64,000 nt of DNA from an uncultured Bacteroidia bacterium (GCA_902791865.1 CADAXK010000001.1:128205-192204), one strand, 5' to 3'. Positions 48,172-61,648 are shown, counted from the first letter of the stretch. Made by a program: numbers and translations. The notes: generated by a model not told the origin, from the letters alone.

Positions 48172-51100
48172 TCAGTTATCCTTTAAATTTTTTAAATATT
48201 CCTTGTACTTGTTTTTATAATAATCCTTTAACTTCAAATTGGAGACCTGCAACAGTTCGTTGAACCTTATTTCACTCTCTTTTTCCTCGAAAGCCTTGTC
48301 GGGATTACTGAGCTTGTATTCCTTTGCTTCTGTCGACTTGCGTTTCTGCTCAGTTTCACGTTCATTCTGGCTGTTTTCGGCCTGAAGCAAACGCGTAATT
48401 ATCTGCTCCTGACGGTTTACCGTCTGCTGTGTAATATTGCGGTTGACCAGATCCTTTATGTTCTGTTCTATCATCTTGTTTGCTTCCTTCAAATACTTTG
48501 CTGCATCGGGACTAAGTTCGCCGTTCATCATGTCGTTCATCATCTTCTGCATCATTTCCTGCTGCATGAGCATCTTTGCCAACTGCTCGCCACTCTGCCC
48601 TTGCTGACCATTCTTCTTCATCTGGTCGAGCATCTGTTGCATTTGCTGTTTCAACTGCTGCTGCATGTCGCGCATCTGCCCCATCTGCTTCTGCTGCGAC
48701 TGTCCCTGACCTTTGTTCTTGCACTTGTTGCAACTAGAACTTGAATTGGAATTGTTTTGCATCTGCATCTGTTGCTGCTGCATCTGGTCGAGAACCTCCG
48801 AAAGCAAAAGTGCAAGGTTGTTTGCCGATGTAAGCACCTTCTGCTGAGAAGTCTGCGCCTGATATTTCTGCGAATTACCCAGATGATCCATAACAGATGC
48901 GAGTTCCTTGCGAATATTCATCACTTCGGGCGAAACCATTGACGAAAGTCCTGGTACGCGCGCTGCCAACGCATTCAACGAATCCCTTATTACCGAGAAA
49001 TTGTCGGTAAGGTTCTTCTGGCGCACAACATATTCCTTGAACTGCGGCGACTTGTACGAAAGTGGTTTCATGCCCGACAAGACATCCTCCTGGTCAAACG
49101 AGAAAGTCAGCACATTCTCGAGCAACTGCTTTACATCATCCATGTTCTCACCGTTTTCCTCCATCTCCATCTGAGCCATCATCGAATCCATTTTCTGCGA
49201 AAGCTCCTGCATCTTCTGCGAACTGTTTTTCTGCTTGTCCGAAGCCTTGTTGTTCTTGTTATCATTCAAGTCCTCATTAGCCTTCTGCATTTCGTTCGAA
49301 ATGTCATTCATCTCATTCTTGAAATCCTGCAAAGGCATAGGTTCCTTCAGGTCGGAATTTTTCTCCAAAGTTTTTTCGTACTCTTCCTTTAGCTTGTCGA
49401 ATTGCTCATTCAGTTCGCTTTGCTCCTTCTTGAGTTCTTCCTGCGACTTACTCTTATCCTTTGTTTCCTCGGCAAGTTTCTTTTCCTTGTCGGCAAGGTT
49501 TTCCATCTGGTCGGCAATGCTCTTTACGCGCTCCTCGACTTCCGAACGCTTAAGCAATTCGAGGGTGTTGTCCATGTTCTGCTCCATCTCCTCTACCGAC
49601 ATCTTGAACTCCTCCGACTTTTTGAAAAATTCGTCCTTATTGAAATCCTCCATGAGTTTCTTCATCTCCTCAATCATCTGACGCATTTCATCAGTCATGA
49701 GATTTTCCAAAAGGCTGTTGATTTCGGCCTGCTTCTTCAATAAATCCTCGCTCTTTGAGAATTGTTCCTTGTACTGCTGAAGCTGGTTCTGCTCTTCCTT
49801 TATCTGCTCCATCAGGCTTTCGAGCTGGTCTTCCTTATCGAGAATGTCCTGCATAATCTGCGAACGGTCGTATGGCGAAAGATTCTCGTTGACGAGTTTA
49901 CGCTTCAGTTCATCAATGCTTTTCTTTATGTCCTCGCTGATTTTCTTGGCTTCATCAATCTTGTTTTCGGTTTCGGTGTTGGTCTCGTCGCTCATGTCCT
50001 GCAAGTCCTGAGCCGATGGAATATTGAACTCCATAACCTTCGACTTCGCCGTCTTAGGCCCGCTGTAACCATCATTGTCGGCAACCTCAAAATAATAGGT
50101 AAGCTTATTGCCTGTATGCTCGATAGTAGAAAAATCAACAGCATAGTAGAAATCCTGCGAATTTAGCCTCTGAGAGAACTGCACTGGCGACTTCTGAATT
50201 TCCGTTTCGCCATCAAAACAACGGAATGTCAGCCTCGTAAAGCCATAATCATCATCGATTGCACCCTTGAAATAAATAATTGCAGGATTAGCGCTGTCCT
50301 TGGCCTCGCTAACCACAATGGTCGGATACAAGTCGGGAACCACGCGAATACGATACTTTATGTCGACCATTTCGCTGAAATATTCGTTGGAGACAAAAAG
50401 CATATAGTCGCTTCCTGATGTTATTCGCTTCGAAACCGTGTATTCGTTTTTCTCCTTCGTCGTAGGCAATACGGTACTGTCGAGTACAATTACCAGAGAA
50501 TCAAGGTTTGCCGTACCGAAAGTCCACTTTACATTCGAGCCAATTGGCACTTCAATATCGCCAGAATTCTTAACCTCGATTGCCTCCAAGCCCGTGTATG
50601 CCATCGGAGTTATATTTATCTTAAAATCAAGGATTATCGGTGCTGGCATAACACTCACCTCATAGTCCTTCGACTCTACATCCTGAGCCGTAAAATAGAA
50701 CTTGAAGGAATTGTTCAATGTCTTGAAATCGTACTTGAAGGTTGAAGCCGACTGCTTTTCCATATAGAACGAATTGCCACCGAAATTTATCAACACATGC
50801 TCGGGAACATATTGACCTTCCACACGCAAATTCACGGTGAAATCATCGCCCTGCCTAACCTGCAAGGTGTCGTTTTCAAGTATGAACGAAAACGGCGCAG
50901 GCATCTCAAAATGCTCATCGTACTTCACTATTCGTTCCGTTCCCTCGGTGACAATCGCCGGCTTGAACGAAATTATCAGCACAAACACAAGTACAACCGG
51001 AGCCAAATACACAAGATACTTGACATTTTTCTTTATCTTGATTGCCGAAAGAAAAGGAATTGGCGAAAGTTTCTCAATTCTCTGCGAGATACTTGCATAA

Positions 51101-51486
51101 ATAAGGTCGCGAGTTTCCGGATTCTCATCAAGCAATGAATTTAGTTCCAATGTATTCTGCAACTTATCCGACACCTCGGGGAAATGCTTTCCCAAAATGC
51201 GGCTTGCTTCGGCATACGAAATACGCTTGCCGATTTTCATAAGCTTTAGCAACGGCCACAGAATCATTGTGACGAATACAATGGCATACAAAGTTATCGA
51301 ACTGATAAACAATGCCGTACGGAATGCAGAAGAAAACCTACCGTAATATTCCGCAATGATTACAATCAGATACCACAATCCCGAAATGGCAAGTGCAAGT
51401 ATAACACCCTTTACCATCTTGTTCAGATAGTACTTCCTGATAAACTTATCAAGTTTGGAAATCAATATGTTATATTTGTCTTCCAT
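48172..51486 (-). CDS. Large membrane-anchored coiled-coil protein (DUF4175-like) with a Gln/Met-rich C-terminal region
   Basis: 1104 aa with several N-terminal TM helices. Next comes a beta-rich middle region, then about 500 aa of E/K/Q/M-rich coiled coil including QQQQMQMQNNSNSSSSCNKCKNKGQGQSQQKQMGQM. The family name is from memory only. Confidence 0.5.
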   Translation of the reverse strand: MEDKYNILISKLDKFIRKYYLNKMVKGVILALAISGLWYLIVIIAEYYGRFSSAFRTALFISSITLYAIVFVTMILWPLLKLMKIGKRISYAEASRILGKHFPEVSDKLQNTLELNSLLDENPETRDLIYASISQRIEKLSPIPFLSAIKIKKNVKYLVYLAPVVLVFVLIISFKPAIVTEGTERIVKYDEHFEMPAPFSFILENDTLQVRQGDDFTVNLRVEGQYVPEHVLINFGGNSFYMEKQSASTFKYDFKTLNNSFKFYFTAQDVESKDYEVSVMPAPIILDFKINITPMAYTGLEAIEVKNSGDIEVPIGSNVKWTFGTANLDSLVIVLDSTVLPTTKEKNEYTVSKRITSGSDYMLFVSNEYFSEMVDIKYRIRVVPDLYPTIVVSEAKDSANPAIIYFKGAIDDDYGFTRLTFRCFDGETEIQKSPVQFSQRLNSQDFYYAVDFSTIEHTGNKLTYYFEVADNDGYSGPKTAKSKVMEFNIPSAQDLQDMSDETNTETENKIDEAKKISEDIKKSIDELKRKLVNENLSPYDRSQIMQDILDKEDQLESLMEQIKEEQNQLQQYKEQFSKSEDLLKKQAEINSLLENLMTDEMRQMIEEMKKLMEDFNKDEFFKKSEEFKMSVEEMEQNMDNTLELLKRSEVEERVKSIADQMENLADKEKKLAEETKDKSKSQEELKKEQSELNEQFDKLKEEYEKTLEKNSDLKEPMPLQDFKNEMNDISNEMQKANEDLNDNKNNKASDKQKNSSQKMQELSQKMDSMMAQMEMEENGENMDDVKQLLENVLTFSFDQEDVLSGMKPLSYKSPQFKEYVVRQKNLTDNFSVIRDSLNALAARVPGLSSMVSPEVMNIRKELASVMDHLGNSQKYQAQTSQQKVLTSANNLALLLSEVLDQMQQQQMQMQNNSNSSSSCNKCKNKGQGQSQQKQMGQMRDMQQQLKQQMQQMLDQMKKNGQQGQSGEQLAKMLMQQEMMQKMMNDMMNGELSPDAAKYLKEANKMIEQNIKDLVNRNITQQTVNRQEQIITRLLQAENSQNERETEQKRKSTEAKEYKLSNPDKAFEEKESEIRFNELLQVSNLKLKDYYKNKYKEYLKNLKDN

Positions 51487-51728: not shown

Positions 51729-54700
51729 TTAATTCTTCACCACCTGCCTATTTATCACAAAATCTGTTGTGCTTACCCTTACATTATAAGCAGCTGGCGG
51801 AAGATTGTAAAGATTCAATATTGTCTCATAGCTATTTTGTGGTGCATCTACCTTTTCGAACATAATCAGCTTGCCAAGCATATCATACACCTCAATGCGA
51901 GCAGGACGATTTTCGAAGTTGTCGAGGACAAGCGTAAGTTCGCCGTTAAACGGGTTCGGGTATGCCTGAACGTCTGGTTCACCGACTTCTGGTTCTTCGC
52001 ATGCTGCAACTATAATTTCCGAAACGGTACGCGAGCCATCATAGTCAACCTGAACTAAGCGGTAATAATTGTCACCACCATGGAAACCATAGTCTGTGTA
52101 TGAGTAGTCGAGCGGTTCAATCGAATTTCCTGCACCTGCTACGCGAGCTATCTCAGTGAAATTTATTGCATCGTCGGATTGCTCAATTACAAAGTAGTCG
52201 TTATTGCGCTCGGTAGCGGTTGTCCACTCAACAAGAACTGACTTTCCGTCACAAATTGCATTGAATGAAACAAGCTCTATTGGCAACAATGTTGACGGAG
52301 TCTTTGATCCAAGAGTCACATAATGGTTACTTGAACTCCTTGTTGCACGTATAGAAACATTTACGCTTATCTTTGTATTGCCGTTTTCTACAGTTCCTGG
52401 ACCGCCAATGTTTTTCCAGCAAGAGCCTAGCCACATTGCTCCGAAAATATCCTCGTCATCGTATGATGTAGCACCCGCGCCAAAATGGTCGGTAACTTCT
52501 GCTGACGAAACCATCAATGTGACATTATTCAATGCTACATTGGAAGAAACATTCCAGAACTCAATATTGCTCACGTGATCAAACTGAGGATCATTGCCAT
52601 CACAATTATCGTTTGCATTCCACCATCGTGGATAGTCAGACGGAAGGTCATTAGTACCAGCCACATTACGATAGCGTACTGTAGCCGAACCTCCGCTACG
52701 AGTTGCAGGAACAGCTATCGTTCCAAGGGTGTGTCCGTTACCAGTCGGGAATGTGAAGGCAGACGAACCAAACGCCTTAGTTACAGCACCATCGACATGG
52801 CTAAGAAGAGAAGCTTCGCTTGCCGTTGCTCCAGATACAAAATTCATATCACCTACGATAACACCCTTTGTGAATGCTGCTACGCCATTGACAGTTATAC
52901 CATGCGGAGCGAAAATCTTCTTACCATCGACAACCTGGGCAAATGTTACATTTCCAAATTCCATTGCACTACTCAAGGTTTGATCGTTAGCACCGTTCAA
53001 TTCTATTATACTAGTATTATCGGCTACGAAAGTTCCGTTATTGATTATTGAGCCTGCAAGTCTAAGTGTTACATTCTCCATTATATGCAATTCGGCACCT
53101 GGCGCTACCTCTATGTTATTCACGGTTGCATCGGAATTCATATATGCCTGCTGAACATCCTGCAAGCAAGTGCCAGAACCACCTATAGCTATATAATAGT
53201 TCTTTGCTTCGGATGGCAATTCAGACGCAATAGAATAAGTGCCGTTATTATACTCATACCAGTTTGATGCGATGTTCCAGTTTGATGTTCCGCCTCTCCA
53301 TACATAGTCGCATGTAGATGTGATTGATATGTCCGGATGGTTGACAGTAATCTGCACTCCTGCATTGGCAGTTGTTCCACAACCATTTGTTGCAGAGTAT
53401 CTTATATAATATCCATCCAAATCTTGCTGAATGTTGCTATTGGTAAATGGAGTATAAGTTCCGTTCTGCGAAGGACTTATTTCCCAACCTTCTGCTAAGA
53501 TACTTGAACCATTTGGAATTACTGTTGGTGCAGTAAGGTCAAGAGACTCTCCTACACAAATAGCATCAGGTGCAGATATTGCAGAAACTGCAGGCTTGTC
53601 GTTGACGGTTATCTGCACAGACGACATCGTTACACTTGAGCAGTTGTCGGAAACAATAACTCTGTAGTATATTGTTCCTGTTGATGTCGTAGGTGGCGTA
53701 AACGAGCTACTGTTGGAGCCTGTGTTATTCCAAGTTGAGCCGTTAGTGGAATACTGCCACTGGTAGTTGTACGAACCACTTCCACTAGATGGAGTTGTCG
53801 AAAGAGCGGTAGCTGTAGCGTTAAGGCAGTAGTCGTTGGCATTTGCGATTGCGGATGATACGAGATCGCCGTAGACGTTGTAGTCGACTCGGAGGAAGTC
53901 TGTAGTCGTGCAGCCGTCGCTTACCCTTACATAGTAGGTATGGCTGCCGGCAGTTCTGCTGCCGCCTGTATAGGTAGCTGAGGTTGCGCCGCTGATTGCG
54001 CTGCCTGCGTTGGCAGCCGTGTACCACTGGTAGGTGACTGGACTATTATTGTTGCTTGAGGTAACGCTGGCAGTAAGACTAGGCGTCTCGCTCTGGCAGT
54101 AGTTCGCTCGGCTGGCTGATGCTGTTGCAGTGATTGTGTTGTAGACGTTGTAATCGACCCTGATGAAGTCCGTAGTCGTGCAGCCGTCGCTTACCCTTAC
54201 ATAATAAGTATGACTGCCTGCTGTCCTGCTGCCGCCCGTATAGGTTGCCGAGGTTGCGCCGCTGATTGCGTTGCCTGCGTTGGCTGCCGTGTACCACTGG
54301 TAGGTGACTGGACTGTTGTTGTTGCTTGAGGTAACGCTGGCAGTAAGACTAGGCGTCTCGCTCTGGCAGTAGTTTGCTCGGCTGGCTGATGCTGTTGCAG
54401 TGATGGTGTTGTAGACGTTGTAGTCGACACGTATAAAATCTGTAGTCGTGCAGCCGTCGCTTACCCTTACATAATAGGTATGACTGCCTGCTGTCCTGCT
54501 GCCGCCCGTATAGGTTGCCGAGGTTGCGCCGCTGATTGCGCTGCCTGCGTTGGCCGCAGTGTACCACTGGTATGTAACTGGACTGTTGTTGTTGCTCGAG
54601 GTAACGCTGGCTGTAAGACTAGGCGTCTCGCTCTGGCAGTAGTTTGCTCGGCTGGCTGATGCTGTTGCCGTGATGCTGTTGTAGACGTTGTAGTCGACAC

Positions 54701-57700
54701 GGAGGAAGTCTGTAGTCGTGCAACCGTCGCTTACCCTTACATAATAAGTATGACTGCCGGCAGTTCTGCTGCCGCCCGTATAGGTTGCCGAGGTTGCGCC
54801 GCTGATTGCGCTGCCTGCGTTGGCAGCCGTGTACCACTGGTAGGTGACTGGACTGCTGTTGTTGCTTGAGGTAACGCTGGCTGTAAGACTAGGCGTCTCG
54901 CTCTGGCAGTAGTTTGCACGGCTGGCTGATGCTGTTGCAGTGATGCTGTTGTAAACGTTGTAGTCGACACGGAGGAAGTCCGTAGTCGTGCAGCCGTCGC
55001 TTACCCTTACATAATAGGTATGGCTACCGGCAGTTCTGCTGCCGCCCGTATAGGTTGCCGAGGTTGCGCCGCTGATTGCGCTGCCTGCGTTAGCTGCCGT
55101 GTACCACTGGTAGGTGACTGGACTGTTGTTGTTGCTCGAGGTAACGCTGGCTGTAAGGCTCGGCGTCTCGCTCTGGCAGTAGTTTGCTCGGCTGGCTGAT
55201 GCTGTTGCAGTGATGGTGTTGTAGACGTTGTAGTCGACACGGAGGAAGTCTGTAGTCGTGCAACCGTCGCTTACCCTTACATAATAGGTATGGCTACCGG
55301 CAGTTCTGCTGCCGCCCGTATAGGTTGCTGAGGTTGCTCCGCTGATTGCGCTGCCCGCGTTGGCCGCAGTGTACCACTGGTAGGTGACTGGACTGTTGTT
55401 GTTGCTCGAGGTAACGCTGGCTGTAAGACTAGGCGTCTCGCTCTGGCAGTAGTTCGCTCGGCTGGCTGATGCTGTGGCCGTGATTGTGTTGTAGACGTTG
55501 ACCAGCACGCTGCTGCTTGCCGAGCAGCTACTACCGCTCCAAACTGTCACCCGATATGTTGTATTAGCTGTAACAGTAGGTGTTACAACAGCAGATGAAC
55601 CAGAACCACTGGGAGTCCAAGTATAAGTAGTACCTCCAGAAGGCGCTGTCAGTGTAACCTGGGAACCATTGCAAACAATAGATGCTGATGCTGTAACATT
55701 AGCGATTGACGACAAAGAAACATAAACTTCATATTCAGAAGTTGAGGTTCCATAATAATTATCGACAATCAAATAGTATGTAGTTCCGGCTGAAAGAGAA
55801 ACTGATACATCATCAAATACAGCATCATCCCAATGTGTTATTTCTGTTCCTTCATTATCACAAGATGACAACAAAAAGAAGTCGGCATCACCATCATTTG
55901 TTGTACCATAAAACGAATAGGTACCCGTTACTGCTGGCGTAAAGGAATAAACCTTTTCTTCTCCAACTTCGTCATATGTCCAATCTCTTACATTAGGATA
56001 ACTATCCCAGGCGCCAATTCTTCCCAACGTACCCGAATATGTCTGTCCACATGTCATTACAGTAACATCCGAACATGGATTCGGGCAAACATCATATATT
56101 GCATACAGGTAAATATTTGAACCGACTGTTATTTCATCACCTGGCAGATAACTGGAGCCACCGCCATTTGCTCTTGTCGCCCATCTCATAAAACATTTGT
56201 TCGAACATGCAACAGGAGGACGCACGTTTACCGTTGCAGGATTGCAACTCCACATTGGCACATCTTGTACTTCGTAATCGCTTTCTCCATTACAATTAAT
56301 TCCGTAATCGTAATATATATGGTAATATCTCCAAGTTGCATCGCGTTCAACAGTATTTTCACATCCATTTTCATTTTGGGCAGTGAAAGAAAAGCCATCT
56401 CCATCATTATAATCTCCAGTACCATAATGATAAGTCAAACATTCAACCATAGGATATTCATTACAATCATGGTCCAATGACATGCTTATCGTTGGTGGGG
56501 CATTATTTCTAGATGCCACAAGAATGTCGTCGCAAGCAAAATCGTCGCTACCGTACAATGTAATTGTAATGCTTCCTTGTGCCGTCAAGGTAAAGTCACA
56601 ATACCTTTGCACCCATTCACCTTGACTTCCCAATAATTGTTCTCCAGATGTCGGGCTACCGCTGACTGTTGTACCACTAACAGAAAGAGTACACTTGCCC
56701 CCCGATGATACATCCATGAACCAAGCCGAAAGCCTATAATCGCCTGCTGGGACATCTGTAATAGTCTTTACATAGAAATCTCCTGTTCCATCGGCCTGGA
56801 ACATGTAACCTCGCGTAACATCATCGGCAAATGTGTGATCCGATTTATTCATTACCCATCCATTACTCGAAGCATCGTGATATGTATTTTTATTTATAGC
56901 ATATACCTTAGTATAGCTTGTCGTACAATTGCTATTACCATGATGACGGCAATCACCGAAGTCCTGCGAGCTAGTATATTGATAATGGTTAACATAATTA
57001 CATCGTGTATAGTCACCTGCGTGTGTCCATGTAGCAGGAATTATGCCTCCACCCGAAGTATAGTTATGATCTGGATCCGCCAGTTTGTGAGGACCAGCAT
57101 ACCTCTCATCCTGCACATCGTTTCCACCGAAGTCATCGTAATAGACAATGATACCGCAAGAGGAGGAAGCCCCACCTTCAAATGTAAAGCATATATCATC
57201 AAGTCCCACTCCGTAACCATAATGGTCAGTAAATTTGAATCCAATCTGATAATTAGCAGCAAATCCTGTTAGAGTTACAGATTGCTCCGTCCACGAAGAA
57301 TGAGCACTGGTCGTACTGAACAATTCTGTCCATGTCCCACCGTTGACGCGATAACAAACAGCAATTTCATCTATGTCCCCGGCCCAACTTCTATTGACAT
57401 ACGAAAATGTTAAAGAAGCCGATGACACATTGCTCAAATCCATTTCAGGACTAACCAGATATGTTACATTACCTGATGTGCTATGAGTAATCCTAGCATT
57501 GTAGGATCCCGTGTTAGCACCAGTACTTGTGTTAGAATCTCCAATTCCTACCGACCAATAAGCACTACCACTACCCTCGCTAGTCCAACCAACGGGCATA
57601 GAACCAGACTCAAAATCGACACAGAAATCATCGGGAACAGAAACGGCAGGAACGATACAGAATTTAATTTGATTCTTTACGTTCATGATAGTTCCCGTAT

Positions 57701-60161
57701 AAGATGTTGCACTTTCTGGGTCATAGTTTGTGCCATCGCTATAAATCCTAATTGTCTGGTTTGTTCCATCAAAAACTAGTGAATTCACTGAAGATACATA
57801 TGAACCAGTATTGTCATCAACAATGAGAGCAACATTTTGTCTTCCATCGTATGAGAAAGGATTGTCAAGCGCAATAGTTGTCCATGCGTCAGCATCGAAA
57901 GTCACGCTACCGCTAAAAACAAGGTCACTGGCAGATACATTAATCCAGTCGTTTGTACCAGTAAATGACTCTTTGTTGGTGGCTACCATATACACATTCA
58001 AATTACGGGTCATAGCCGCTTTTGCATAGAATGAAACAGAAACAATATCTCCTGCCTCATTTCCAATTTCATCATCTGTATATATTTGCTGAGTTAATGA
58101 ATAATTATAGAAAATATAGGTTGGCAAATAATTGTGAACAGCAGTTCCGCTTCCTATCTGCACTTCCGCGCAATCACCGCCGCTGCTATTTGCCTCAAAG
58201 TTAGCCACGAGTGTATGGTTTGCAGATATGCTGCTTATTGTGTAACTTGCACTAGTAGAAACCTGAGAGCCACCTTCTGTCCAATTGACAAAATGATAGC
58301 CACTATTGGGTGTAGCCGTTACAGTTGGCGATGTACCACAGTTGAAAGTACCACCTCCACTAACAGTACCACCAGCACTCGGATTTGCTGAGACGCTGAC
58401 CGTATGAGTATTCTGCGTGTAACGAGCCTCCAGGGTTCGGTTACTGGAAACGGTAAAGGTGTAGCTGGCATTAGTGCTTACCCTGCTGCCGTTCTCATAC
58501 CATCCGTCAAAGGTATAGCAAGTATTAGTAGTTGCCGTTACAGTTGTTGAAGTCCCGCAGTTTTTGGTACCACCGCCACTAACAGAACCTCCAGCACTAG
58601 GATTTGCTGAGACACTGACCGTATGGGTATTCTGCGTGTAACGAGCCTCCAGGGTTCGGTTTCCAGAAACGGTAAAGGTGTAGCTGGCACTAGTGCTTAC
58701 CCTGCTGCCGTTCTCATACCATCCGCTGAAAGTATAGCATGTATTGGTAGTAGCCGAAACAGTACAGCTAGCACCACTACTAAAAGTGCCTCCTCCCGAG
58801 ACGGTACCGCCTGCCGAAGGATTGGCAGAAACACTGACAGTATAATTGGTAGGAGCTACAGAAACAGTCGATATACATACATCATCGATGCCGCAGGTGT
58901 ACCAGGTGCTGGTTTTGTACCAACGGAAGGCGATGCGCTTGCCAGTAGTCGCACCAACGGCAAGGTCTATATCAATATGACCAGGATTAGTACTAGGATT
59001 AGAAACAGTTCCTATCACCTGATACGAATTTGCATCAGTGCCATTGATAACACCATAGGTAAGAGTACCATATGCTGCACTTTCAAAATTGTATCTGAAA
59101 GAAAGATGGGAAACCGCTTTGCCCGCAGGGACAGCGGGCATGATGGCGTAGCTGTATTCGCTAGCGCTTCCGCTGGAATAAAAGCAAATATAATTGCTTG
59201 AGTTGGGGGCTCCAGGAGTAGTGTTACTTGAAGTAGTCACATGGGGCATGTTGGCAGGTGATGTTTCTGTATTGCCATATACCGTGCCAGCATATATGCG
59301 GTTCCATCCCGATGGAAGCACACCGCCAGTGCTATAGCTTCCTGAGCCACTTGTGCTATTGAAGTCCTCGCAGACAGTGGGAGGAGTGTAGGTAAACTTA
59401 ACATTTGCCCGATATCTATCTAAAGTACCAGTTCTTTCCGTTCCCGGGTCGGTTGAACTATCCACATTGTTTCTCCACATTGAATTTTGTACTTCAGTAT
59501 ACCTACACTGTCTAGCACATCCTCCACCAGTTGTACATCCTTTTCCAAATACCATTACAAGTATGGCTTTCCCTGCTTCATGATTAAACCCAGATGAAAA
59601 ATTTAATGTTTTCCATCCTGTAGTAGTTATTGTTTCAGTAGTACTACTATAAACTAATTGTGCTCCTGATTTAAATGTTGAAAATGTAGTTGTGCTGGAC
59701 AAAGTATAACTTGCATCTACATCTTTTATCCATATATTCCACTCTGCAACACTAGTACTAGAATTAATATTAGTAATATCATATGCTATACTCGTCAGTA
59801 TTATATCGTTATTTAATTCAGCGGCATCACTAGGTGTATATAAATATACATCATATTGCCATCCATACCAGCCAGGCAATGGAGTATAATAAGTTGACGT
59901 ACCAGAACCTATTGTAAATGCATTTTGCCCAAATGCCTTTCCTCCCAACAGCAAACAAAAAACAAACAACAATACTGCTGTTGTAAGCCCTACGAACTTT
60001 GTTTTTATGTTTTCGCTCTGGAATGTCGATTTTTTAATAATGAATGGTATAAAATTATCATCATTCTTTGTCATCATGCCATAGGTTTTGCAACCCATAG
60101 GAACATCCAAATGTGCTATATAATGGTACTTCTCGCCATATTTTACTGATAATGACCTCAT
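51729..60161 (-). CDS. Giant (2810 aa) T9SS-secreted multi-domain surface protein (adhesin-like)
   Basis: One continuous ORF. A hydrophobic signal-like segment (LTTAVLLFVFCLLLGGKAFGQ) lies about 60 aa from the first ATG. It contains 3 x 73-aa InlB-B-like repeats (TVSVSANPSAGG...GY.F..W), MAM / choice-of-anchor-J-like modules and a pre-peptidase-C-like module. It also has 6 near-identical plus 2 divergent 90-aa Ig-like repeats. The type-A T9SS CTD is YPNPFNGELTLVLD...YNVRVST. A -7 box lies at 60199-60206. Confidence 0.8.
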   Translation of the reverse strand: MRSLSVKYGEKYHYIAHLDVPMGCKTYGMMTKNDDNFIPFIIKKSTFQSENIKTKFVGLTTAVLLFVFCLLLGGKAFGQNAFTIGSGTSTYYTPLPGWYGWQYDVYLYTPSDAAELNNDIILTSIAYDITNINSSTSVAEWNIWIKDVDASYTLSSTTTFSTFKSGAQLVYSSTTETITTTGWKTLNFSSGFNHEAGKAILVMVFGKGCTTGGGCARQCRYTEVQNSMWRNNVDSSTDPGTERTGTLDRYRANVKFTYTPPTVCEDFNSTSGSGSYSTGGVLPSGWNRIYAGTVYGNTETSPANMPHVTTSSNTTPGAPNSSNYICFYSSGSASEYSYAIMPAVPAGKAVSHLSFRYNFESAAYGTLTYGVINGTDANSYQVIGTVSNPSTNPGHIDIDLAVGATTGKRIAFRWYKTSTWYTCGIDDVCISTVSVAPTNYTVSVSANPSAGGTVSGGGTFSSGASCTVSATTNTCYTFSGWYENGSRVSTSASYTFTVSGNRTLEARYTQNTHTVSVSANPSAGGSVSGGGTKNCGTSTTVTATTNTCYTFDGWYENGSRVSTNASYTFTVSSNRTLEARYTQNTHTVSVSANPSAGGTVSGGGTFNCGTSPTVTATPNSGYHFVNWTEGGSQVSTSASYTISSISANHTLVANFEANSSGGDCAEVQIGSGTAVHNYLPTYIFYNYSLTQQIYTDDEIGNEAGDIVSVSFYAKAAMTRNLNVYMVATNKESFTGTNDWINVSASDLVFSGSVTFDADAWTTIALDNPFSYDGRQNVALIVDDNTGSYVSSVNSLVFDGTNQTIRIYSDGTNYDPESATSYTGTIMNVKNQIKFCIVPAVSVPDDFCVDFESGSMPVGWTSEGSGSAYWSVGIGDSNTSTGANTGSYNARITHSTSGNVTYLVSPEMDLSNVSSASLTFSYVNRSWAGDIDEIAVCYRVNGGTWTELFSTTSAHSSWTEQSVTLTGFAANYQIGFKFTDHYGYGVGLDDICFTFEGGASSSCGIIVYYDDFGGNDVQDERYAGPHKLADPDHNYTSGGGIIPATWTHAGDYTRCNYVNHYQYTSSQDFGDCRHHGNSNCTTSYTKVYAINKNTYHDASSNGWVMNKSDHTFADDVTRGYMFQADGTGDFYVKTITDVPAGDYRLSAWFMDVSSGGKCTLSVSGTTVSGSPTSGEQLLGSQGEWVQRYCDFTLTAQGSITITLYGSDDFACDDILVASRNNAPPTISMSLDHDCNEYPMVECLTYHYGTGDYNDGDGFSFTAQNENGCENTVERDATWRYYHIYYDYGINCNGESDYEVQDVPMWSCNPATVNVRPPVACSNKCFMRWATRANGGGSSYLPGDEITVGSNIYLYAIYDVCPNPCSDVTVMTCGQTYSGTLGRIGAWDSYPNVRDWTYDEVGEEKVYSFTPAVTGTYSFYGTTNDGDADFFLLSSCDNEGTEITHWDDAVFDDVSVSLSAGTTYYLIVDNYYGTSTSEYEVYVSLSSIANVTASASIVCNGSQVTLTAPSGGTTYTWTPSGSGSSAVVTPTVTANTTYRVTVWSGSSCSASSSVLVNVYNTITATASASRANYCQSETPSLTASVTSSNNNSPVTYQWYTAANAGSAISGATSATYTGGSRTAGSHTYYVRVSDGCTTTDFLRVDYNVYNTITATASASRANYCQSETPSLTASVTSSNNNSPVTYQWYTAANAGSAISGATSATYTGGSRTAGSHTYYVRVSDGCTTTDFLRVDYNVYNSITATASASRANYCQSETPSLTASVTSSNNSSPVTYQWYTAANAGSAISGATSATYTGGSRTAGSHTYYVRVSDGCTTTDFLRVDYNVYNSITATASASRANYCQSETPSLTASVTSSNNNSPVTYQWYTAANAGSAISGATSATYTGGSRTAGSHTYYVRVSDGCTTTDFIRVDYNVYNTITATASASRANYCQSETPSLTASVTSSNNNSPVTYQWYTAANAGNAISGATSATYTGGSRTAGSHTYYVRVSDGCTTTDFIRVDYNVYNTITATASASRANYCQSETPSLTASVTSSNNNSPVTYQWYTAANAGSAISGATSATYTGGSRTAGSHTYYVRVSDGCTTTDFLRVDYNVYGDLVSSAIANANDYCLNATATALSTTPSSGSGSYNYQWQYSTNGSTWNNTGSNSSSFTPPTTSTGTIYYRVIVSDNCSSVTMSSVQITVNDKPAVSAISAPDAICVGESLDLTAPTVIPNGSSILAEGWEISPSQNGTYTPFTNSNIQQDLDGYYIRYSATNGCGTTANAGVQITVNHPDISITSTCDYVWRGGTSNWNIASNWYEYNNGTYSIASELPSEAKNYYIAIGGSGTCLQDVQQAYMNSDATVNNIEVAPGAELHIMENVTLRLAGSIINNGTFVADNTSIIELNGANDQTLSSAMEFGNVTFAQVVDGKKIFAPHGITVNGVAAFTKGVIVGDMNFVSGATASEASLLSHVDGAVTKAFGSSAFTFPTGNGHTLGTIAVPATRSGGSATVRYRNVAGTNDLPSDYPRWWNANDNCDGNDPQFDHVSNIEFWNVSSNVALNNVTLMVSSAEVTDHFGAGATSYDDEDIFGAMWLGSCWKNIGGPGTVENGNTKISVNVSIRATRSSSNHYVTLGSKTPSTLLPIELVSFNAICDGKSVLVEWTTATERNNDYFVIEQSDDAINFTEIARVAGAGNSIEPLDYSYTDYGFHGGDNYYRLVQVDYDGSRTVSEIIVAACEEPEVGEPDVQAYPNPFNGELTLVLDNFENRPARIEVYDMLGKLIMFEKVDAPQNSYETILNLYNLPPAAYNVRVSTTDFVINRQVVKN
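53871..55490. repeat. Six tandem 270-bp repeats (90-aa Ig-like units) inside the giant gene
   Basis: The unit boundary motif gta[ga]acgttgta[ga]tcgac recurs at 53871, 54141, 54411, 54681, 54951, 55221 and 55491, an exact 270-bp period. Confidence 0.95.
58180..58842. repeat. Three tandem 219-bp repeats (73-aa InlB-B-like units) inside the giant gene
   Basis: The phase markers gacc/gaca-gta occur at 58398, 58617 and 58836. The first two units are nearly identical at the DNA level and the third is more divergent. Confidence 0.85.
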
Positions 60162-60426: not shown

Positions 60427-61605
60427 CTATCGACATACTGCCCGCACAAGAAGTCCCCTAGCACGAGAGCTAACATTCACGTATGAATTTTCGGGACTGA
60501 CAATAAGGCTGTACGCCATATATGGTTCGTTGGCTGTATAGAGCGTACTTGTCCAATAATAACATGTACTGGCATCATACACAATTTCCATATCGCGATA
60601 ACCATTTGCAGGCAGGAAAATGCTGTTTCCATTAGGTCCTGTAAACTTGTATCCTGCTACTCCGCCCTGCGTTACAGCCGCACGAGTGCAATTGTCAAAT
60701 AGTTCATCCATCTCATTGCGCGTTGGTGTACGCCAACCTGCGCCCCAGTTTGATGTTGCTGCATCGTCAACAGACTCGAGTGTGGTCAAATTGTCAACAT
60801 GACCGTTGATACCATAATATGACACATTGCAATATTTGGTCAATTCAACATAAGAACCGTTGCAATACTTATAATTAGTCCAAAAATAACTATACTTGGA
60901 AGCAGTTTCGCCCCAAGCAACTGGTTCTCCGTGACCTTCCGGGACTGTTGCTCCGACATTGCAGGTAGCCCACTTGGTGCCGCTCGGCAAACCAAGGTCA
61001 ATATATGCATGTCCGTTCAACTGTCCTTCGCCCTGCGTGCCTCCATTTGATGACCATTGCGCATACAAAGTCATGCTTTCGTAAATTACTATATCCTGCT
61101 CATCGTAGTAATGCAAGCCAGAGCCATCGGCAATTGTATTCCATTTTACAAAAGTGTAGCCTTCGCGTGTGAAAGCATTGGCTGTCAACTCCTGTCTTAC
61201 TCCGCTTTGGAAGGTCTGAGGTTGCATAGTGCCTGTTCCTCCATTGGCATCAAATGTAACGACAAATGTATTTCCTGTTGTATCACTTGGATGCAAAATG
61301 CTATCGGCAGTCCACTGAGCATATAGCGTCATATCGTTGCTAACACTTATTTCCTGACCATCCATGTACCTTACACCAGTTCCATCTGGTATGGTATTCC
61401 ACTCCGCAAAGCCATAACCTTCACGAGTAAATTTGTTAAGTGTAAGCGCTTTATTTACACTTCCTGTAAATGTCTGCGGATCCATTACTCCAGTTCCGCC
61501 ATTAGCATCGAAAGTTATAGTATAGGTATCACCAAAATCACATCCACTTAATGCCAGCATTCCCGCTACGGAAACGATAGCAAAAAGAATTAAAAATTTT
61601 CTCAT
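60427..61605 (-). CDS. Lipoprotein with two Listeria-Bacteroides (InlB-B type) repeats and a C-terminal DUF1566/FISUMP-like domain
   Basis: The lipobox is LALSGC. There are two repeats of the form TFDANGGTG...FTREGY.F..WNT..DG.G..Y......I.....TLYAQW. The C-terminal part (GTKWATCNVGA...GWRTPTRNEMDELF...YYWTSTL...GLLVRAV) resembles the Fibrobacter-paralogous / DUF1566 class. The start is set to the ATG at 61605. Confidence 0.6.
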   Translation of the reverse strand: MRKFLILFAIVSVAGMLALSGCDFGDTYTITFDANGGTGVMDPQTFTGSVNKALTLNKFTREGYGFAEWNTIPDGTGVRYMDGQEISVSNDMTLYAQWTADSILHPSDTTGNTFVVTFDANGGTGTMQPQTFQSGVRQELTANAFTREGYTFVKWNTIADGSGLHYYDEQDIVIYESMTLYAQWSSNGGTQGEGQLNGHAYIDLGLPSGTKWATCNVGATVPEGHGEPVAWGETASKYSYFWTNYKYCNGSYVELTKYCNVSYYGINGHVDNLTTLESVDDAATSNWGAGWRTPTRNEMDELFDNCTRAAVTQGGVAGYKFTGPNGNSIFLPANGYRDMEIVYDASTCYYWTSTLYTANEPYMAYSLIVSPENSYVNVSSRARGLLVRAVCR

Positions 61606-61620
61606 ATTATTCAAATTATT

Positions 61621-61648
61621 GTAGAGATGTTGCACGCAACATCTCTAC
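61621..61648. repeat. Perfect 12-bp-stem palindrome of the GTTGC..GCAAC family
   Basis: GTAGAGATGTTG-cacg-CAACATCTCTAC. It shares the GTTGCnnGCAAC core and the CTCTAC flank with the copies at 46082-46136, with covarying stem positions (TC/GA versus AT/AT). Confidence 0.8.

What the first reader, a model, noticed from the sequence alone, without database searches (positions are those of the whole stretch)
53871..55490. Six 270-bp tandem repeats whose copies differ almost only at synonymous sites
The period is exact, with boundaries at 53871, 54141, 54411, 54681, 54951, 55221 and 55491. By hand count, units 55221-55490 and 54951-55220 differ at 15 nucleotide positions, yet their 90-aa translations are identical. 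Units 53871-54140 and 54141-54410 differ at 20 positions (about 7 percent) but at only 2 residues (S/N and L/I). Across all six units only about four amino-acid positions vary. Recent duplication or gene conversion would give identical DNA, and neutral decay would give amino-acid change. Instead the protein sequence is frozen while the DNA has drifted. This implies strong purifying selection on every copy, and possibly selection for nucleotide divergence that suppresses recombinational loss. Each unit is an Ig-like module with two conserved Cys (NYCQSE ... SDGCTT). Divergent copies flank the array on both sides.
Basis: seen in the sequence. Interest (0 to 1): 0.65.

Follow-up and report, generated by a model that had tools for sequence, protein, structure and literature searches.

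The report
Protein-identical Ig repeats with drifted DNA
Six 270-bp tandem repeats in a giant secreted surface protein of an uncultured rumen Bacteroidales bacterium encode almost identical Ig-like domains although their DNA differs by about 7%, which is what strong purifying selection on an old, slowly recombining repeat array produces, much as in polyubiquitin genes.

Summary
There are six in-frame 270-bp units at 53871-55490 (minus strand). They show 14-25 nucleotide differences per pair, and only four amino-acid columns vary. Mean dS is 0.31, mean dN is 0.010, and dN/dS is 0-0.14.

The units are Ig_7 (PF19081) domains inside a 2810-aa type IX secretion cargo protein of a rumen Bacteroidales.

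Other strains carry 1, 2, 3 and at least 8 units in their assemblies. The same synonymous variants recur in mosaic combinations, with at least 7 recombination events inside this array.

A more distant lineage keeps the unit at dN 0.025 while dS is about 0.9. The Ig_7 domains immediately beside it reach dN 0.11-0.12.

So strong purifying selection on an old array, with slow concerted evolution, is well supported.

It has no support. The differences are not spaced more evenly than chance, adjacent units are not more different than distant ones, and recombination clearly occurs.

One thing is unexplained. The array is a GC3 island (0.64, against 0.34 in the rest of the gene), and the island persists across lineages.

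Copy number and unit order in this window could not be checked with long reads.

The parts
51729..60161 (-). ORF of 2810 aa. It is a type IX secretion (T9SS) cargo or surface protein that contains the array.
   Evidence: ORF list and translation. Pfam hits: Ig_7 x7, Flg_new_2 x3, MAM and Por_Secre_tail. NCBIfam TIGR04183 scores 38.3 bits against a cutoff of 23. Syntenic orthologs are in L001 and L002.
53871..55490 (-). Six tandem 270-bp units, each one 90-aa Ig_7 domain. In protein order they are U1 55221-55490, U2 54951-55220, U3 54681-54950, U4 54411-54680, U5 54141-54410 and U6 53871-54140.
   Evidence: TRF. Pairwise dN/dS. AlphaFold2 model with pLDDT 86.9, a beta-sandwich. Foldseek matches to Ig-like domains. 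GC3 is 0.60-0.67.
55491..55718 (-). Divergent Ig_7 copy on the N-terminal side of the array (aa 1482-1557).
   Evidence: 32% amino-acid identity to a unit, with synonymous sites saturated. It is hit by the local Ig_7-type HMM.
53601..53870 (-). Divergent Ig_7 copy immediately on the C-terminal side of the array (aa 2098-2187).
   Evidence: 27% identity to a unit. Against lineage G it has dN 0.122, while the unit has dN 0.025. A K319L-like PKD hit covers aa 2119-2186.
53337..53600 (-). Second divergent Ig_7 copy on the C-terminal side (aa 2188-2275).
   Evidence: 24% identity to a unit. The homologous module is the one expanded into a tandem array in another rumen MAG, L006.
58182..58838 (-). 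Three 219-bp Flg_new_2 (InlB B-repeat-like) repeats (aa 442-660). They serve as an internal control.
   Evidence: TRF and Pfam. dS is 0.7-2.0, dN is 0.15-0.39 and omega is about 0.2.
57186..57617 (-). MAM domain (aa 849-992).
   Evidence: Pfam PF00629, E = 4.2e-9. In ortholog L002 this region is a very divergent allele, with dS about 1 and dN about 0.35.
51732..51962 (-). T9SS type A C-terminal sorting domain (aa 2734-2810).
   Evidence: PF18962 scores 38.4 bits (cutoff 27) and TIGR04183 scores 38.3 bits (cutoff 23).

Best explanation
**What it is.** The array is a real block of six Ig-like (Ig_7) domains. It sits in the middle of a giant surface protein of an uncultured rumen Bacteroidales. 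The protein is exported by the type IX secretion system and, by inference, anchored through its C-terminal sorting domain.

**How it evolves.**
- The units are old paralogs. Their synonymous divergence (dS 0.2-0.5 within this array, up to about 1 between lineages) is several times the divergence of the flanking single-copy sequence between strains.
- Almost every amino-acid change in a unit is removed by purifying selection (omega about 0.03).
- Synonymous changes accumulate. Occasional short-tract gene conversion and unequal crossing-over shuffle them among units.
- The same processes change unit number between strains, and over long times they keep the units of one lineage alike. This is slow concerted evolution, as in polyubiquitin genes.

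**What it probably does.** The domains most likely form a stalk of variable length made of identical modules. The stalk would carry the N-terminal MAM and InlB-like parts away from the cell. The unusually tight constraint suggests the unit surface itself is functional, in binding or self-association.

**Shown versus inferred.** Shown: the sequence pattern, the domain family, the fold model, the recombination signal and the cross-lineage conservation. Inferred: surface anchoring, the stalk role, and the reason for the constraint.
For: **Low omega at substantial dS.**
- dN/dS is 0-0.14 at dS 0.18-0.48.
- 38 synonymous against 5 nonsynonymous changes (P = 4.5e-19).

**The units are older than the strains.**
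- flanks differ between strains by dS 0.01-0.16 only.

**The unit is conserved across lineages.**
- against lineage G the unit has dS 0.84-1.1 but dN 0.025. The adjacent upstream 160 aa have dN 0.11 and the adjacent downstream Ig_7 has dN 0.122.
- the Flg_new_2 repeats of the same gene have omega of about 0.2 (Fisher P = 4e-4 against the array).

**Recombination and copy-number change.**
- the same biallelic third-position variants recur in different combinations in 14 or more units from 5 assemblies. There are 69 four-gamete failures, with Rm >= 7 in this array and >= 15 over 11 units. The variance of pairwise differences (10.2) is below the mean (17.9), as expected for well-mixed sites.
- assemblies hold 1, 2, 3, 6 and at least 8 units.

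**Slow concerted evolution.**
- units within lineage E differ at 3 of 120 nt and share a 3-codon loop insertion. Units within lineage G have dS 0.24-0.28 and share P9, I35 and T48. They are therefore more alike than units compared between lineages.

**Independent data.**
- unitigs from an independent run (X1) carry a further unit variant that differs at 12 sites. The 11 sites listed are all third codon positions.

**Domain identity.**
- Ig_7 membership, the T9SS sorting domain, the conserved Cys pair and the Ig-like model.

**Generality.**
- related arrays in other rumen Bacteroidales show the same tendency (dS 0.24-0.63, omega 0.07-0.24).
Against: - The order and number of units in the window rest on one assembly.
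- Run X1 has flanks identical to the window but lacks part of unit U4 and holds another variant. So either arrays change very fast or some assemblies are partly chimeric.
- Unit numbers of 1-3 come from short-read assemblies, which can collapse repeats. The scaffold with at least 8 units has a gap and two DNA-identical unit pairs that could be scaffold redundancy.
- W, A and B units are no closer within a genome than between genomes. Concerted evolution is visible only at greater depth.
- Simple deletion chimeras do not explain units of other strains. The best mosaics leave 5-15 mismatches.
- The GC3 island and the higher frequency of derived GC alleles show that synonymous sites in the array are not simply neutral. 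dS is therefore an imperfect clock.
- No experiment bears on the stalk or binding role.
Confidence: 0.65

Rival explanations
1. Natural codon scrambling. Selection favours synonymous differences between units because they shorten the tracts of DNA identity. That protects a long array of identical domains from RecA-mediated deletion.
For: - No pair of units within W, A or B differs by fewer than 14 nt.
- The longest exact repeat inside the window's array is only 80 nt.
- Synonymous diversity in the array exceeds that of the flanks.
Against: - The positions of the synonymous differences are not more even than random placement on synonymous sites: P = 0.61 (maximum run), 0.65 (mean) and 0.44 (adjacent units).
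- Adjacent units are not more different than distant ones.
- Recombination and copy-number change clearly occur.
- Identical unit pairs exist in scaffold L029.
- Short-read assemblies cannot represent identical neighbouring units. The lack of identical pairs is therefore partly an ascertainment effect.
Confidence: 0.1
2. Assembly artefact. The six-unit array, or its unit order, is a chimeric walk through variants from several co-existing strains, and the true gene has fewer or different units.
For: - The array is known from a single assembly.
- The species-representative MAG is broken exactly at the array, and two scaffolds have gaps there.
- Run X1, with flanks identical to the window, does not cover 54573-54694 at 98% or better and carries a different 139-nt variant.
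Against: - The longest internal exact repeat is 80 nt, shorter than usual reads and final k-mers. A single strain's array is therefore resolvable.
- All 36 X1 contigs laid at 98% or better match the window with no differences.
- The key phenomenon, differences at third positions only, is seen in five other assemblies, in Logan unitigs and in RNA-run contigs. It does not depend on this assembly.
Confidence: 0.15
3. Imported diversity. The deep divergence between units comes mainly from homologous recombination with more distant lineages. Cassettes are exchanged among rumen Bacteroidales, rather than paralogs ageing in place.
For: - The gene is a mosaic. The MAM region of ortholog B has dS about 1 against 0.01-0.13 elsewhere.
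- Strain E has flanks at dS 0.08-0.16 but units at dS 0.56-0.9, with a replaced loop.
- Strain F holds two unit classes, with F5p and F6 at dS 0.5-0.9 from the rest.
- The sorting domain of lineage G is nearly identical to the window's while its middle part is saturated.
- The array has a GC3 unlike its flanks.
Against: - All units in all lineages have the same GC3 (0.58-0.67), and no donor was identified.
- This explanation accounts for the source of the variation, not for the frozen protein. Strong purifying selection is still needed, so it complements the best explanation rather than replacing it.
Confidence: 0.3
4. GC-biased gene conversion, or selection for C-ending codons, acts inside the array. 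It shapes the synonymous sites, creating the GC3 island and part of the apparent synonymous 'drift'.
For: - GC3 is 0.64 in the array against 0.34 in the rest of the gene.
- The step is also present in lineage G at dS about 0.9 (0.60 against 0.28-0.38).
- The GC allele is the major one at 32 of 42 AT/GC polymorphic sites.
- With G3 as outgroup, derived AT-to-GC alleles are more frequent (mean 0.45) than derived GC-to-AT alleles (0.23), one-sided P = 0.013.
Against: - The outgroup is nearly saturated, so mispolarisation can mimic this signal.
- The units are not independent samples.
- In L020 and L006 the high GC3 also covers non-repeated C-terminal sequence.
- Some ordinary genes of the window reach GC3 0.58.
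Confidence: 0.15

Closest known systems
Polyubiquitin genes (tandem ubiquitin-coding repeats)
   Same: - The units are head-to-tail and in frame, and they encode identical or nearly identical protein while synonymous sites differ substantially.
- Unit number is polymorphic through unequal crossing-over.
- Homogenisation is slow, so units are more alike within a lineage than between distant lineages.
- The pattern was used to argue for strong purifying selection (Sharp and Li 1987; Nei et al. 2000; as reviewed in PMC10457151).
   Different: - This is a bacterial secreted structural protein that is not cleaved into monomers.
- The unit is an Ig-like domain with a probable disulfide.
- Among close strains (W, A, B), units are not closer within a genome than between genomes.
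- The array is a GC3 island.
Periscope Proteins (SasG, Rib, Sgo_0707 and others; PMC8201768)
   Same: - It is a cell-surface protein with a run of long globular-domain repeats that are nearly identical in protein.
- Repeat number differs between strains, which would change the reach of the distal domains.
   Different: - In that class, high DNA identity is held to drive the variation and to cause the protein repetition.
- Here DNA identity is only 91-95%, and the protein identity is maintained by selection rather than by recent duplication.
- The rod-like behaviour is untested.
- The organism is a Gram-negative Bacteroidales with T9SS export.
Ig_7 (PF19081) arrays of Bacteroidota T9SS or gliding adhesins, for example Aureispira GhpA (PDB 9flw, 9fls, 9g8b)
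   Same: - It belongs to the same Pfam family.
- The unit model superposes on GhpA Ig-like domains (TM 0.69, 24-29% identity).
- These are long multi-Ig secreted proteins of Bacteroidota.
   Different: - Typical Ig_7 arrays in the hits (P0059, P0062, P0088) have clearly diverged protein units. Here six units are 96-100% identical.
- This protein has a type A sorting domain rather than the gliding-type CHU_C or type B end.
- Its function is unknown.
Engineered codon scrambling of repetitive genes (from my own knowledge, not checked here)
   Same: Identical protein repeats are encoded by deliberately non-identical DNA, to avoid recombination and synthesis problems.
   Different: No sign of design-like even spacing or maximised difference was found. 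The natural pattern fits drift plus purifying selection.

Membership tests
Pfam Ig_7 (PF19081, Ig-like domain CHU_C associated) | The sequence matches the family HMM above the gathering score. | tested here: met
   127.3 bits against a cutoff of 27.3, with 7 stretches.
Pfam Ig_7 (PF19081, Ig-like domain CHU_C associated) | Ig-like beta-sandwich fold with a conserved Cys pair. | tested here: met
   The AF2 model has pLDDT 86.9 and six strands. The top Foldseek hits are Ig-like domains. C15 and C77 are conserved in 45 family domains. The disulfide itself is not verified.
T9SS type A cargo | C-terminal sorting domain (TIGR04183 / PF18962) at the very C-terminus. | tested here: met
   aa 2734-2810 score 38.3 bits (cutoff 23) and 38.4 bits (cutoff 27).
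T9SS type A cargo | Export through T9SS and attachment to the cell surface. | not testable with these tools
   Inferred from the sorting domain and from an N-terminal hydrophobic segment seen in the translation.
Periscope Proteins | Long tandem repeats of a globular domain that are highly identical in protein. | tested here: met
   Six 90-aa units are 96-100% identical.
Periscope Proteins | Repeat number varies between strains. | tested here: inconclusive
   Assemblies hold 1, 2, 3, 6 and at least 8 units. Short-read collapse and scaffold gaps cannot be excluded, and no long reads were available.
Periscope Proteins | Near-identical DNA repeats that drive intragenic recombination. | tested here: not met
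   DNA identity between units is 91-95%, and the longest shared exact run is 80 nt.
Periscope Proteins | The repeats form an extended rod that projects a distal functional domain. | not tested
   Only a single unit was modelled.
Polyubiquitin-type evolution (purifying selection with slow concerted evolution) | Units are identical in protein but differ at synonymous sites. | tested here: met
   Mean dS is 0.31 and mean dN is 0.010.
Polyubiquitin-type evolution (purifying selection with slow concerted evolution) | Units within a genome are more alike than units compared between lineages. | tested here: inconclusive
   This holds for lineages E and G, which also share derived residues. It does not hold among the close strains W, A and B.

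The most novel reading that the evidence does not exclude
The array's synonymous sites are under a force of their own that is tied to its tandem nature. That force could be GC-biased gene conversion or selection on codon choice, possibly including selection to keep units non-identical in DNA. It would maintain a GC3 island and deep synonymous diversity over times that saturate dS, while the protein stays fixed. If so, this would be a natural 'codon-scrambled' variable-length stalk. It would also show directly that protein-level identity of repeats is itself the selected trait, rather than a by-product of recent DNA duplication.
Probability: 0.12. Interest if true: 0.7.

Novelty: new member of a known kind. 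Interest (0 to 1): 0.4.

Why it matters
In bacterial surface proteins, runs of identical domains are usually explained by very recent DNA duplication. The protein identity is then seen as a side effect that selection tolerates or exploits (the Periscope Protein view). This array separates the two. The DNA of the units has diverged by 5-9% within the array and to near saturation between lineages. The protein hardly changes over the same span, while neighbouring domains of the same family change four to five times faster. That is direct evolutionary evidence that the identity of the modules is itself maintained by selection.

The array also offers a practical handle for strain typing of an uncultured rumen bacterium. 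It is a natural test case for how much DNA divergence a recombining array can carry.

Otherwise the mechanism is textbook. Purifying selection with slow concerted evolution has been known from polyubiquitin and histone genes for decades.

Tried and rejected
- **Unit-only protein search.** A search with one 90-aa unit returned nothing, probably a limit of the word index. A 901-aa query spanning the array worked instead.
- **Exact-protein lookup.** Looking up the window's own protein found no other contig.
- **Long-read runs.** Searches for Nanopore and PacBio runs found none.
- **Copy number from Logan contig depth in run X1.** This could not be resolved. Only 8 pieces are listed per call, and shared unitigs fit several places.
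- **Even-spacing (anti-recombination) test.** The result was negative.
- **Units of other strains as simple chimeras of the window's units.** The best mosaics, with 1-3 switches, still leave 5-15 mismatches. Simple deletion products are rejected.
- **Recent foreign origin of the array as the cause of the GC3 step.** This was weakened because lineage G shows the same step at dS of about 0.9.
- **Overlapping ORF on another frame or strand as the cause of constraint.** No ORF of 100 aa or more overlaps the array apart from the main one. In any case, the free variation of third positions argues against it.
- **Frame error.** In one search the first L006 array was read in the wrong frame. The right frame is shown, but dN/dS was not recomputed for it.


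Full report
**1. The observation**

Tandem Repeats Finder reports one array at 53871-55500 with period 270, 6.0 copies, 93% matches and no indels. It lies in frame inside a 2810-aa ORF on the minus strand, 51729..60161.

Six 90-aa units result, and they differ at only four amino-acid columns: T/S at position 2, N/S at 32, S/N at 47 and L/I at 83.

The first two units in protein order differ at 15 nt and 0 aa. The last two differ at 20 nt and 2 aa.

Nei-Gojobori estimates over the 15 pairs give dS 0.18-0.48 (mean 0.31), dN 0-0.025 (mean 0.010) and dN/dS 0-0.14.

There are 41 variable nucleotide columns, and 36 of them are degenerate third positions. Of 43 inferred changes, 38 are synonymous, against an expected 24% (P = 4.5e-19).

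**2. What the units and the gene are**

Pfam places the units in Ig_7 (PF19081, 'Ig-like domain CHU_C associated'), with seven stretches and 127 bits.

The same protein carries three Flg_new_2 (InlB B-repeat-like) repeats, a MAM domain and a C-terminal Por_Secre_tail. NCBIfam confirms a T9SS type A sorting domain.

An AlphaFold2 model of one unit was built on an alignment of 45 family domains taken from the protein hits. It has mean pLDDT 86.9 and is a six-strand beta-sandwich.

Foldseek's best PDB matches are Ig-like domains. They include MALT1 Ig C2 (3bfo) and the Ig-like modules of the Aureispira grappling-hook protein GhpA (9flw, 29% identity).

I could not test the disulfide itself.

Three divergent Ig_7 copies flank the array at 21-32% identity, with saturated synonymous sites.

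**3. Organism and relatives**

The stretch occurs in bovine, goat and sheep gut (rumen) metagenome runs.

The GTDB species representative is an uncultured 'Bacteroidales bacterium ruminal_MAG_341'. Its copy of the gene is broken into two contigs exactly at the array.

Syntenic orthologs were recovered from several assemblies:

| Label | Locus | Units in the assembly |
|---|---|---|
| A | L001 | 3 |
| B | L002 | 2 |
| C | L017 | at least 2 |
| D | L018 | 1 |
| F | L029 | at least 8, around a 100-N gap |
| G (more distant lineage) | L028 | at least 2-3, around a gap |

Rumen metatranscriptome runs give low, patchy contig coverage of the gene, including the array. This is weak evidence of expression.

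**4. How old the units are**

Between strains W (the window), A, B and E, the single-copy parts of the gene and the neighbouring 1104-aa gene differ by dS 0.01-0.16. Units differ by dS 0.2-0.5 within W, and by 0.56-0.9 between W and E.

The unit divergence is therefore several times older than the strains, or it has been imported from more distant lineages.

Only the outer edges of the arrays look orthologous. W1 and A1 share the alleles at unit columns 6, 12 and 15. W6, A3, C2 and D1 share the allele at column 252.

**5. Recombination**

The same biallelic third-position variants recur in different combinations within and between genomes, often as short linked blocks. Examples are columns 186/189/192, 105/108 and 243-249.

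- In W alone, 69 site pairs fail the four-gamete test, and at least 7 recombination events are needed. Over 11 units at least 15 are needed.
- Pairwise differences in W have variance 10.2 against a mean of 17.9, as expected when sites are well mixed.
- Units of other strains cannot be written as simple one-breakpoint chimeras of W's units.

In run X1, both flanks match the window without a single difference over 2 kb, and all 36 laid contigs are identical to the window at 98% or better. Even so, part of unit U4 is not covered. A 139-nt unitig at single-copy depth differs from it at 12 sites, and the 11 sites listed are all third codon positions at the same polymorphic columns.

The phenomenon is therefore visible in data independent of the window's assembly. 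Arrays can also differ even when the flanks do not.

**6. Strength of the constraint, with controls**

| Comparison | dS | dN | omega |
|---|---|---|---|
| Units within the array (mean) | 0.31 | 0.010 | about 0.03 |
| Flg_new_2 repeats of the same gene | 0.7-2.0 | 0.15-0.39 | about 0.2 |
| Rest of the gene, W versus A (by region) | 0.01-0.15 | 0-0.012 | 0-0.43 |
| Neighbouring 1104-aa gene | 0.05-0.16 | 0.001-0.003 | about 0.02 |

The Flg_new_2 contrast is significant (Fisher P = 4e-4), and so is the contrast with the rest of the gene (Fisher P = 0.02). The neighbouring gene shows that an omega of 0.03 is not extraordinary for this genome.

The most telling comparison is with lineage G:

| Region, W versus G | dS | dN |
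|---|---|---|
| Unit | 0.84-1.1 | 0.025 |
| 160 aa just upstream | 0.44 | 0.11 |
| Ig_7 domain just downstream | 0.82 | 0.122 |
| Parts further downstream | saturated | 0.45-1.0 |

The unit is thus four to five times more constrained than its immediate neighbours of the same fold, over a time that nearly saturates synonymous sites.

The one large protein change seen is in strain E. A loop (GATSATYTGG) is replaced by AGNGGTANPFTQG, with three extra codons.

**7. Concerted evolution**

- In E, the first-unit and last-unit fragments share that derived loop and differ at only 3 of 120 nt.
- In G, the units differ by dS 0.24-0.28 and share P9, I35 and T48.
- In F, two unit classes coexist, and two pairs are DNA-identical (F2 = F7, F3 = F4p). 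These pairs may be recent duplications or scaffold redundancy.

Units within a lineage are therefore homogenised, but slowly. This is the situation long debated for polyubiquitin genes.

**8.

If selection favoured nucleotide divergence to block recombination, the differences should break identity tracts more evenly than chance, and neighbouring units should be especially different.

I permuted the variable columns over the 89 degenerate third positions. The observed longest shared runs (80 nt maximum, 61 mean, 65 for adjacent units) sit in the middle of the null distributions (P = 0.61, 0.65 and 0.44). Mean differences by lag are 16.6, 19.0, 17.3, 21.0 and 16.0.

There is no positive evidence for this idea. 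The absence of identical pairs in W, A and B is partly an ascertainment effect, because short-read assemblies cannot represent identical neighbouring units.

**9. An unexplained feature: the GC3 island**

- Third-position GC is 0.60-0.67 across the array. It is 0.18-0.38 in the adjoining parts of the same gene and 0.47 in 32 other ORFs of the window.
- Codon choices in the array are strong. AGC makes up 63% of Ser codons (17% elsewhere), GGC 86% of Gly (30%) and AAC 95% of Asn (55%).
- The step also exists in lineage G (0.60 against 0.28-0.38), and every unit in every lineage has GC3 of 0.58-0.67.
- The GC allele is the major one at 32 of 42 AT/GC polymorphic sites.
- With G3 as outgroup, derived AT-to-GC alleles are at higher frequency than derived GC-to-AT alleles (0.45 against 0.23, P = 0.013).

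This would fit GC-biased gene conversion or codon selection inside the array. However, the outgroup is nearly saturated and the units are not independent. In two related loci, high GC3 also covers non-repeated sequence. I leave it open.

**10. Comparison with what is known**

- **Evolutionary behaviour.** It is that of polyubiquitin-type repeats: identical protein, drifting synonymous sites, unit-number polymorphism and slow homogenisation.
- **Architecture.** It resembles a Periscope Protein in having nearly identical globular repeats and apparent length variation. It fails that class's DNA feature, near-identical DNA repeats.
- **Family.** It is an Ig_7 array of a Bacteroidota T9SS cargo. 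Most such arrays among the hits have clearly diverged protein units, so the near-identity here is at the extreme of the family. Related arrays in other rumen Bacteroidales show a milder form of the same pattern, with omega 0.07-0.24 at dS 0.24-0.63.

**11. Verdict**

The core interpretation, purifying selection on every copy of an Ig-like module, is supported and extended. The anti-recombination speculation is not supported.

The mechanism is a known one seen in a new place. I rate it a new member of a known kind, of moderate interest. The GC3 island and the decoupling of protein identity from DNA identity are the points worth following.

The main weakness is that unit number and order in any one genome have not been confirmed by long reads.

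Noticed in passing
window 53871-55490, compared with the rest of ORF 51729-60161: There is a sharp GC3 island. Third-position GC is 0.60-0.67 in the array, 0.18-0.38 in adjoining parts of the same gene and 0.47 in other ORFs. Codon choice is very skewed: AGC, GGC, AAC, GAC and GTC are favoured. The step also exists in a lineage at dS of about 0.9, and derived AT-to-GC alleles are at higher frequency than the reverse.
   Followed up: partly
window 57186-58118 (aa 681-1000, MAM region), compared with L002: In ortholog B this region is a very divergent allele (dS about 1, dN about 0.35), while the rest of the gene differs by dS 0.01-0.13. The gene is therefore a recombinational mosaic with old allele classes.
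   Followed up: partly
L004 8469-8663 and L003 1-204 (ruminal_MAG_341): In this strain the unit has a replaced loop, AGNGGTANPFTQG instead of GATSATYTGG, with three extra codons. The change sits at the family's conserved 'GAT...Y' motif and is present in both contig-end unit fragments. The contigs break at the array.
   Followed up: partly
L029 1698-3816: This scaffold has at least 8 units around a 100-N gap. Two unit pairs are identical in DNA (F2 = F7, F3 = F4p), and two units (F5p, F6) belong to a divergent class resembling lineages E and G. It is unclear whether the identical pairs are real duplications or scaffold redundancy.
   Followed up: partly
L006 1-1409, and L007: In another rumen MAG, a different Ig_7 module has been expanded into a tandem array of at least 6 units of 261 bp. 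It is the homolog of the window's second downstream copy (aa 2188-2275). Different family members thus amplify different modules.
   Followed up: no
L005 4506-8804 and 9152-12019: The homologous gene in RUG13567 is split into two ORFs within a 246-bp repeat array of about 7 units. This could be a frameshift, a pseudogene or an assembly error in the repeats.
   Followed up: no
window 58182-58838: Three 219-bp Flg_new_2 repeats in the same gene have diverged normally (dN 0.15-0.39, omega about 0.2). Between W and B this region has omega 0.88 on few changes.
   Followed up: yes
window 55005-55156: One low-depth contig of RNA run X25 joins 55005 to 55156, skipping 150 nt inside the array. The skip is in frame but is not a unit length. 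It is probably a contig from a different unit arrangement, or an assembly artefact.
   Followed up: no
window 48172-51486 (-): The downstream neighbour is a 1104-aa protein with only a DUF4175 match, GC3 of 0.58 and very strong constraint between strains (omega about 0.02). It is syntenic in all orthologous loci.
   Followed up: no
window 60427-61635 (-): The upstream neighbour is a 402-aa protein with Listeria-Bacteroides repeats (Flg_new) and an Lcl C-terminal-like domain. It may be a second surface protein of the same locus.
   Followed up: no
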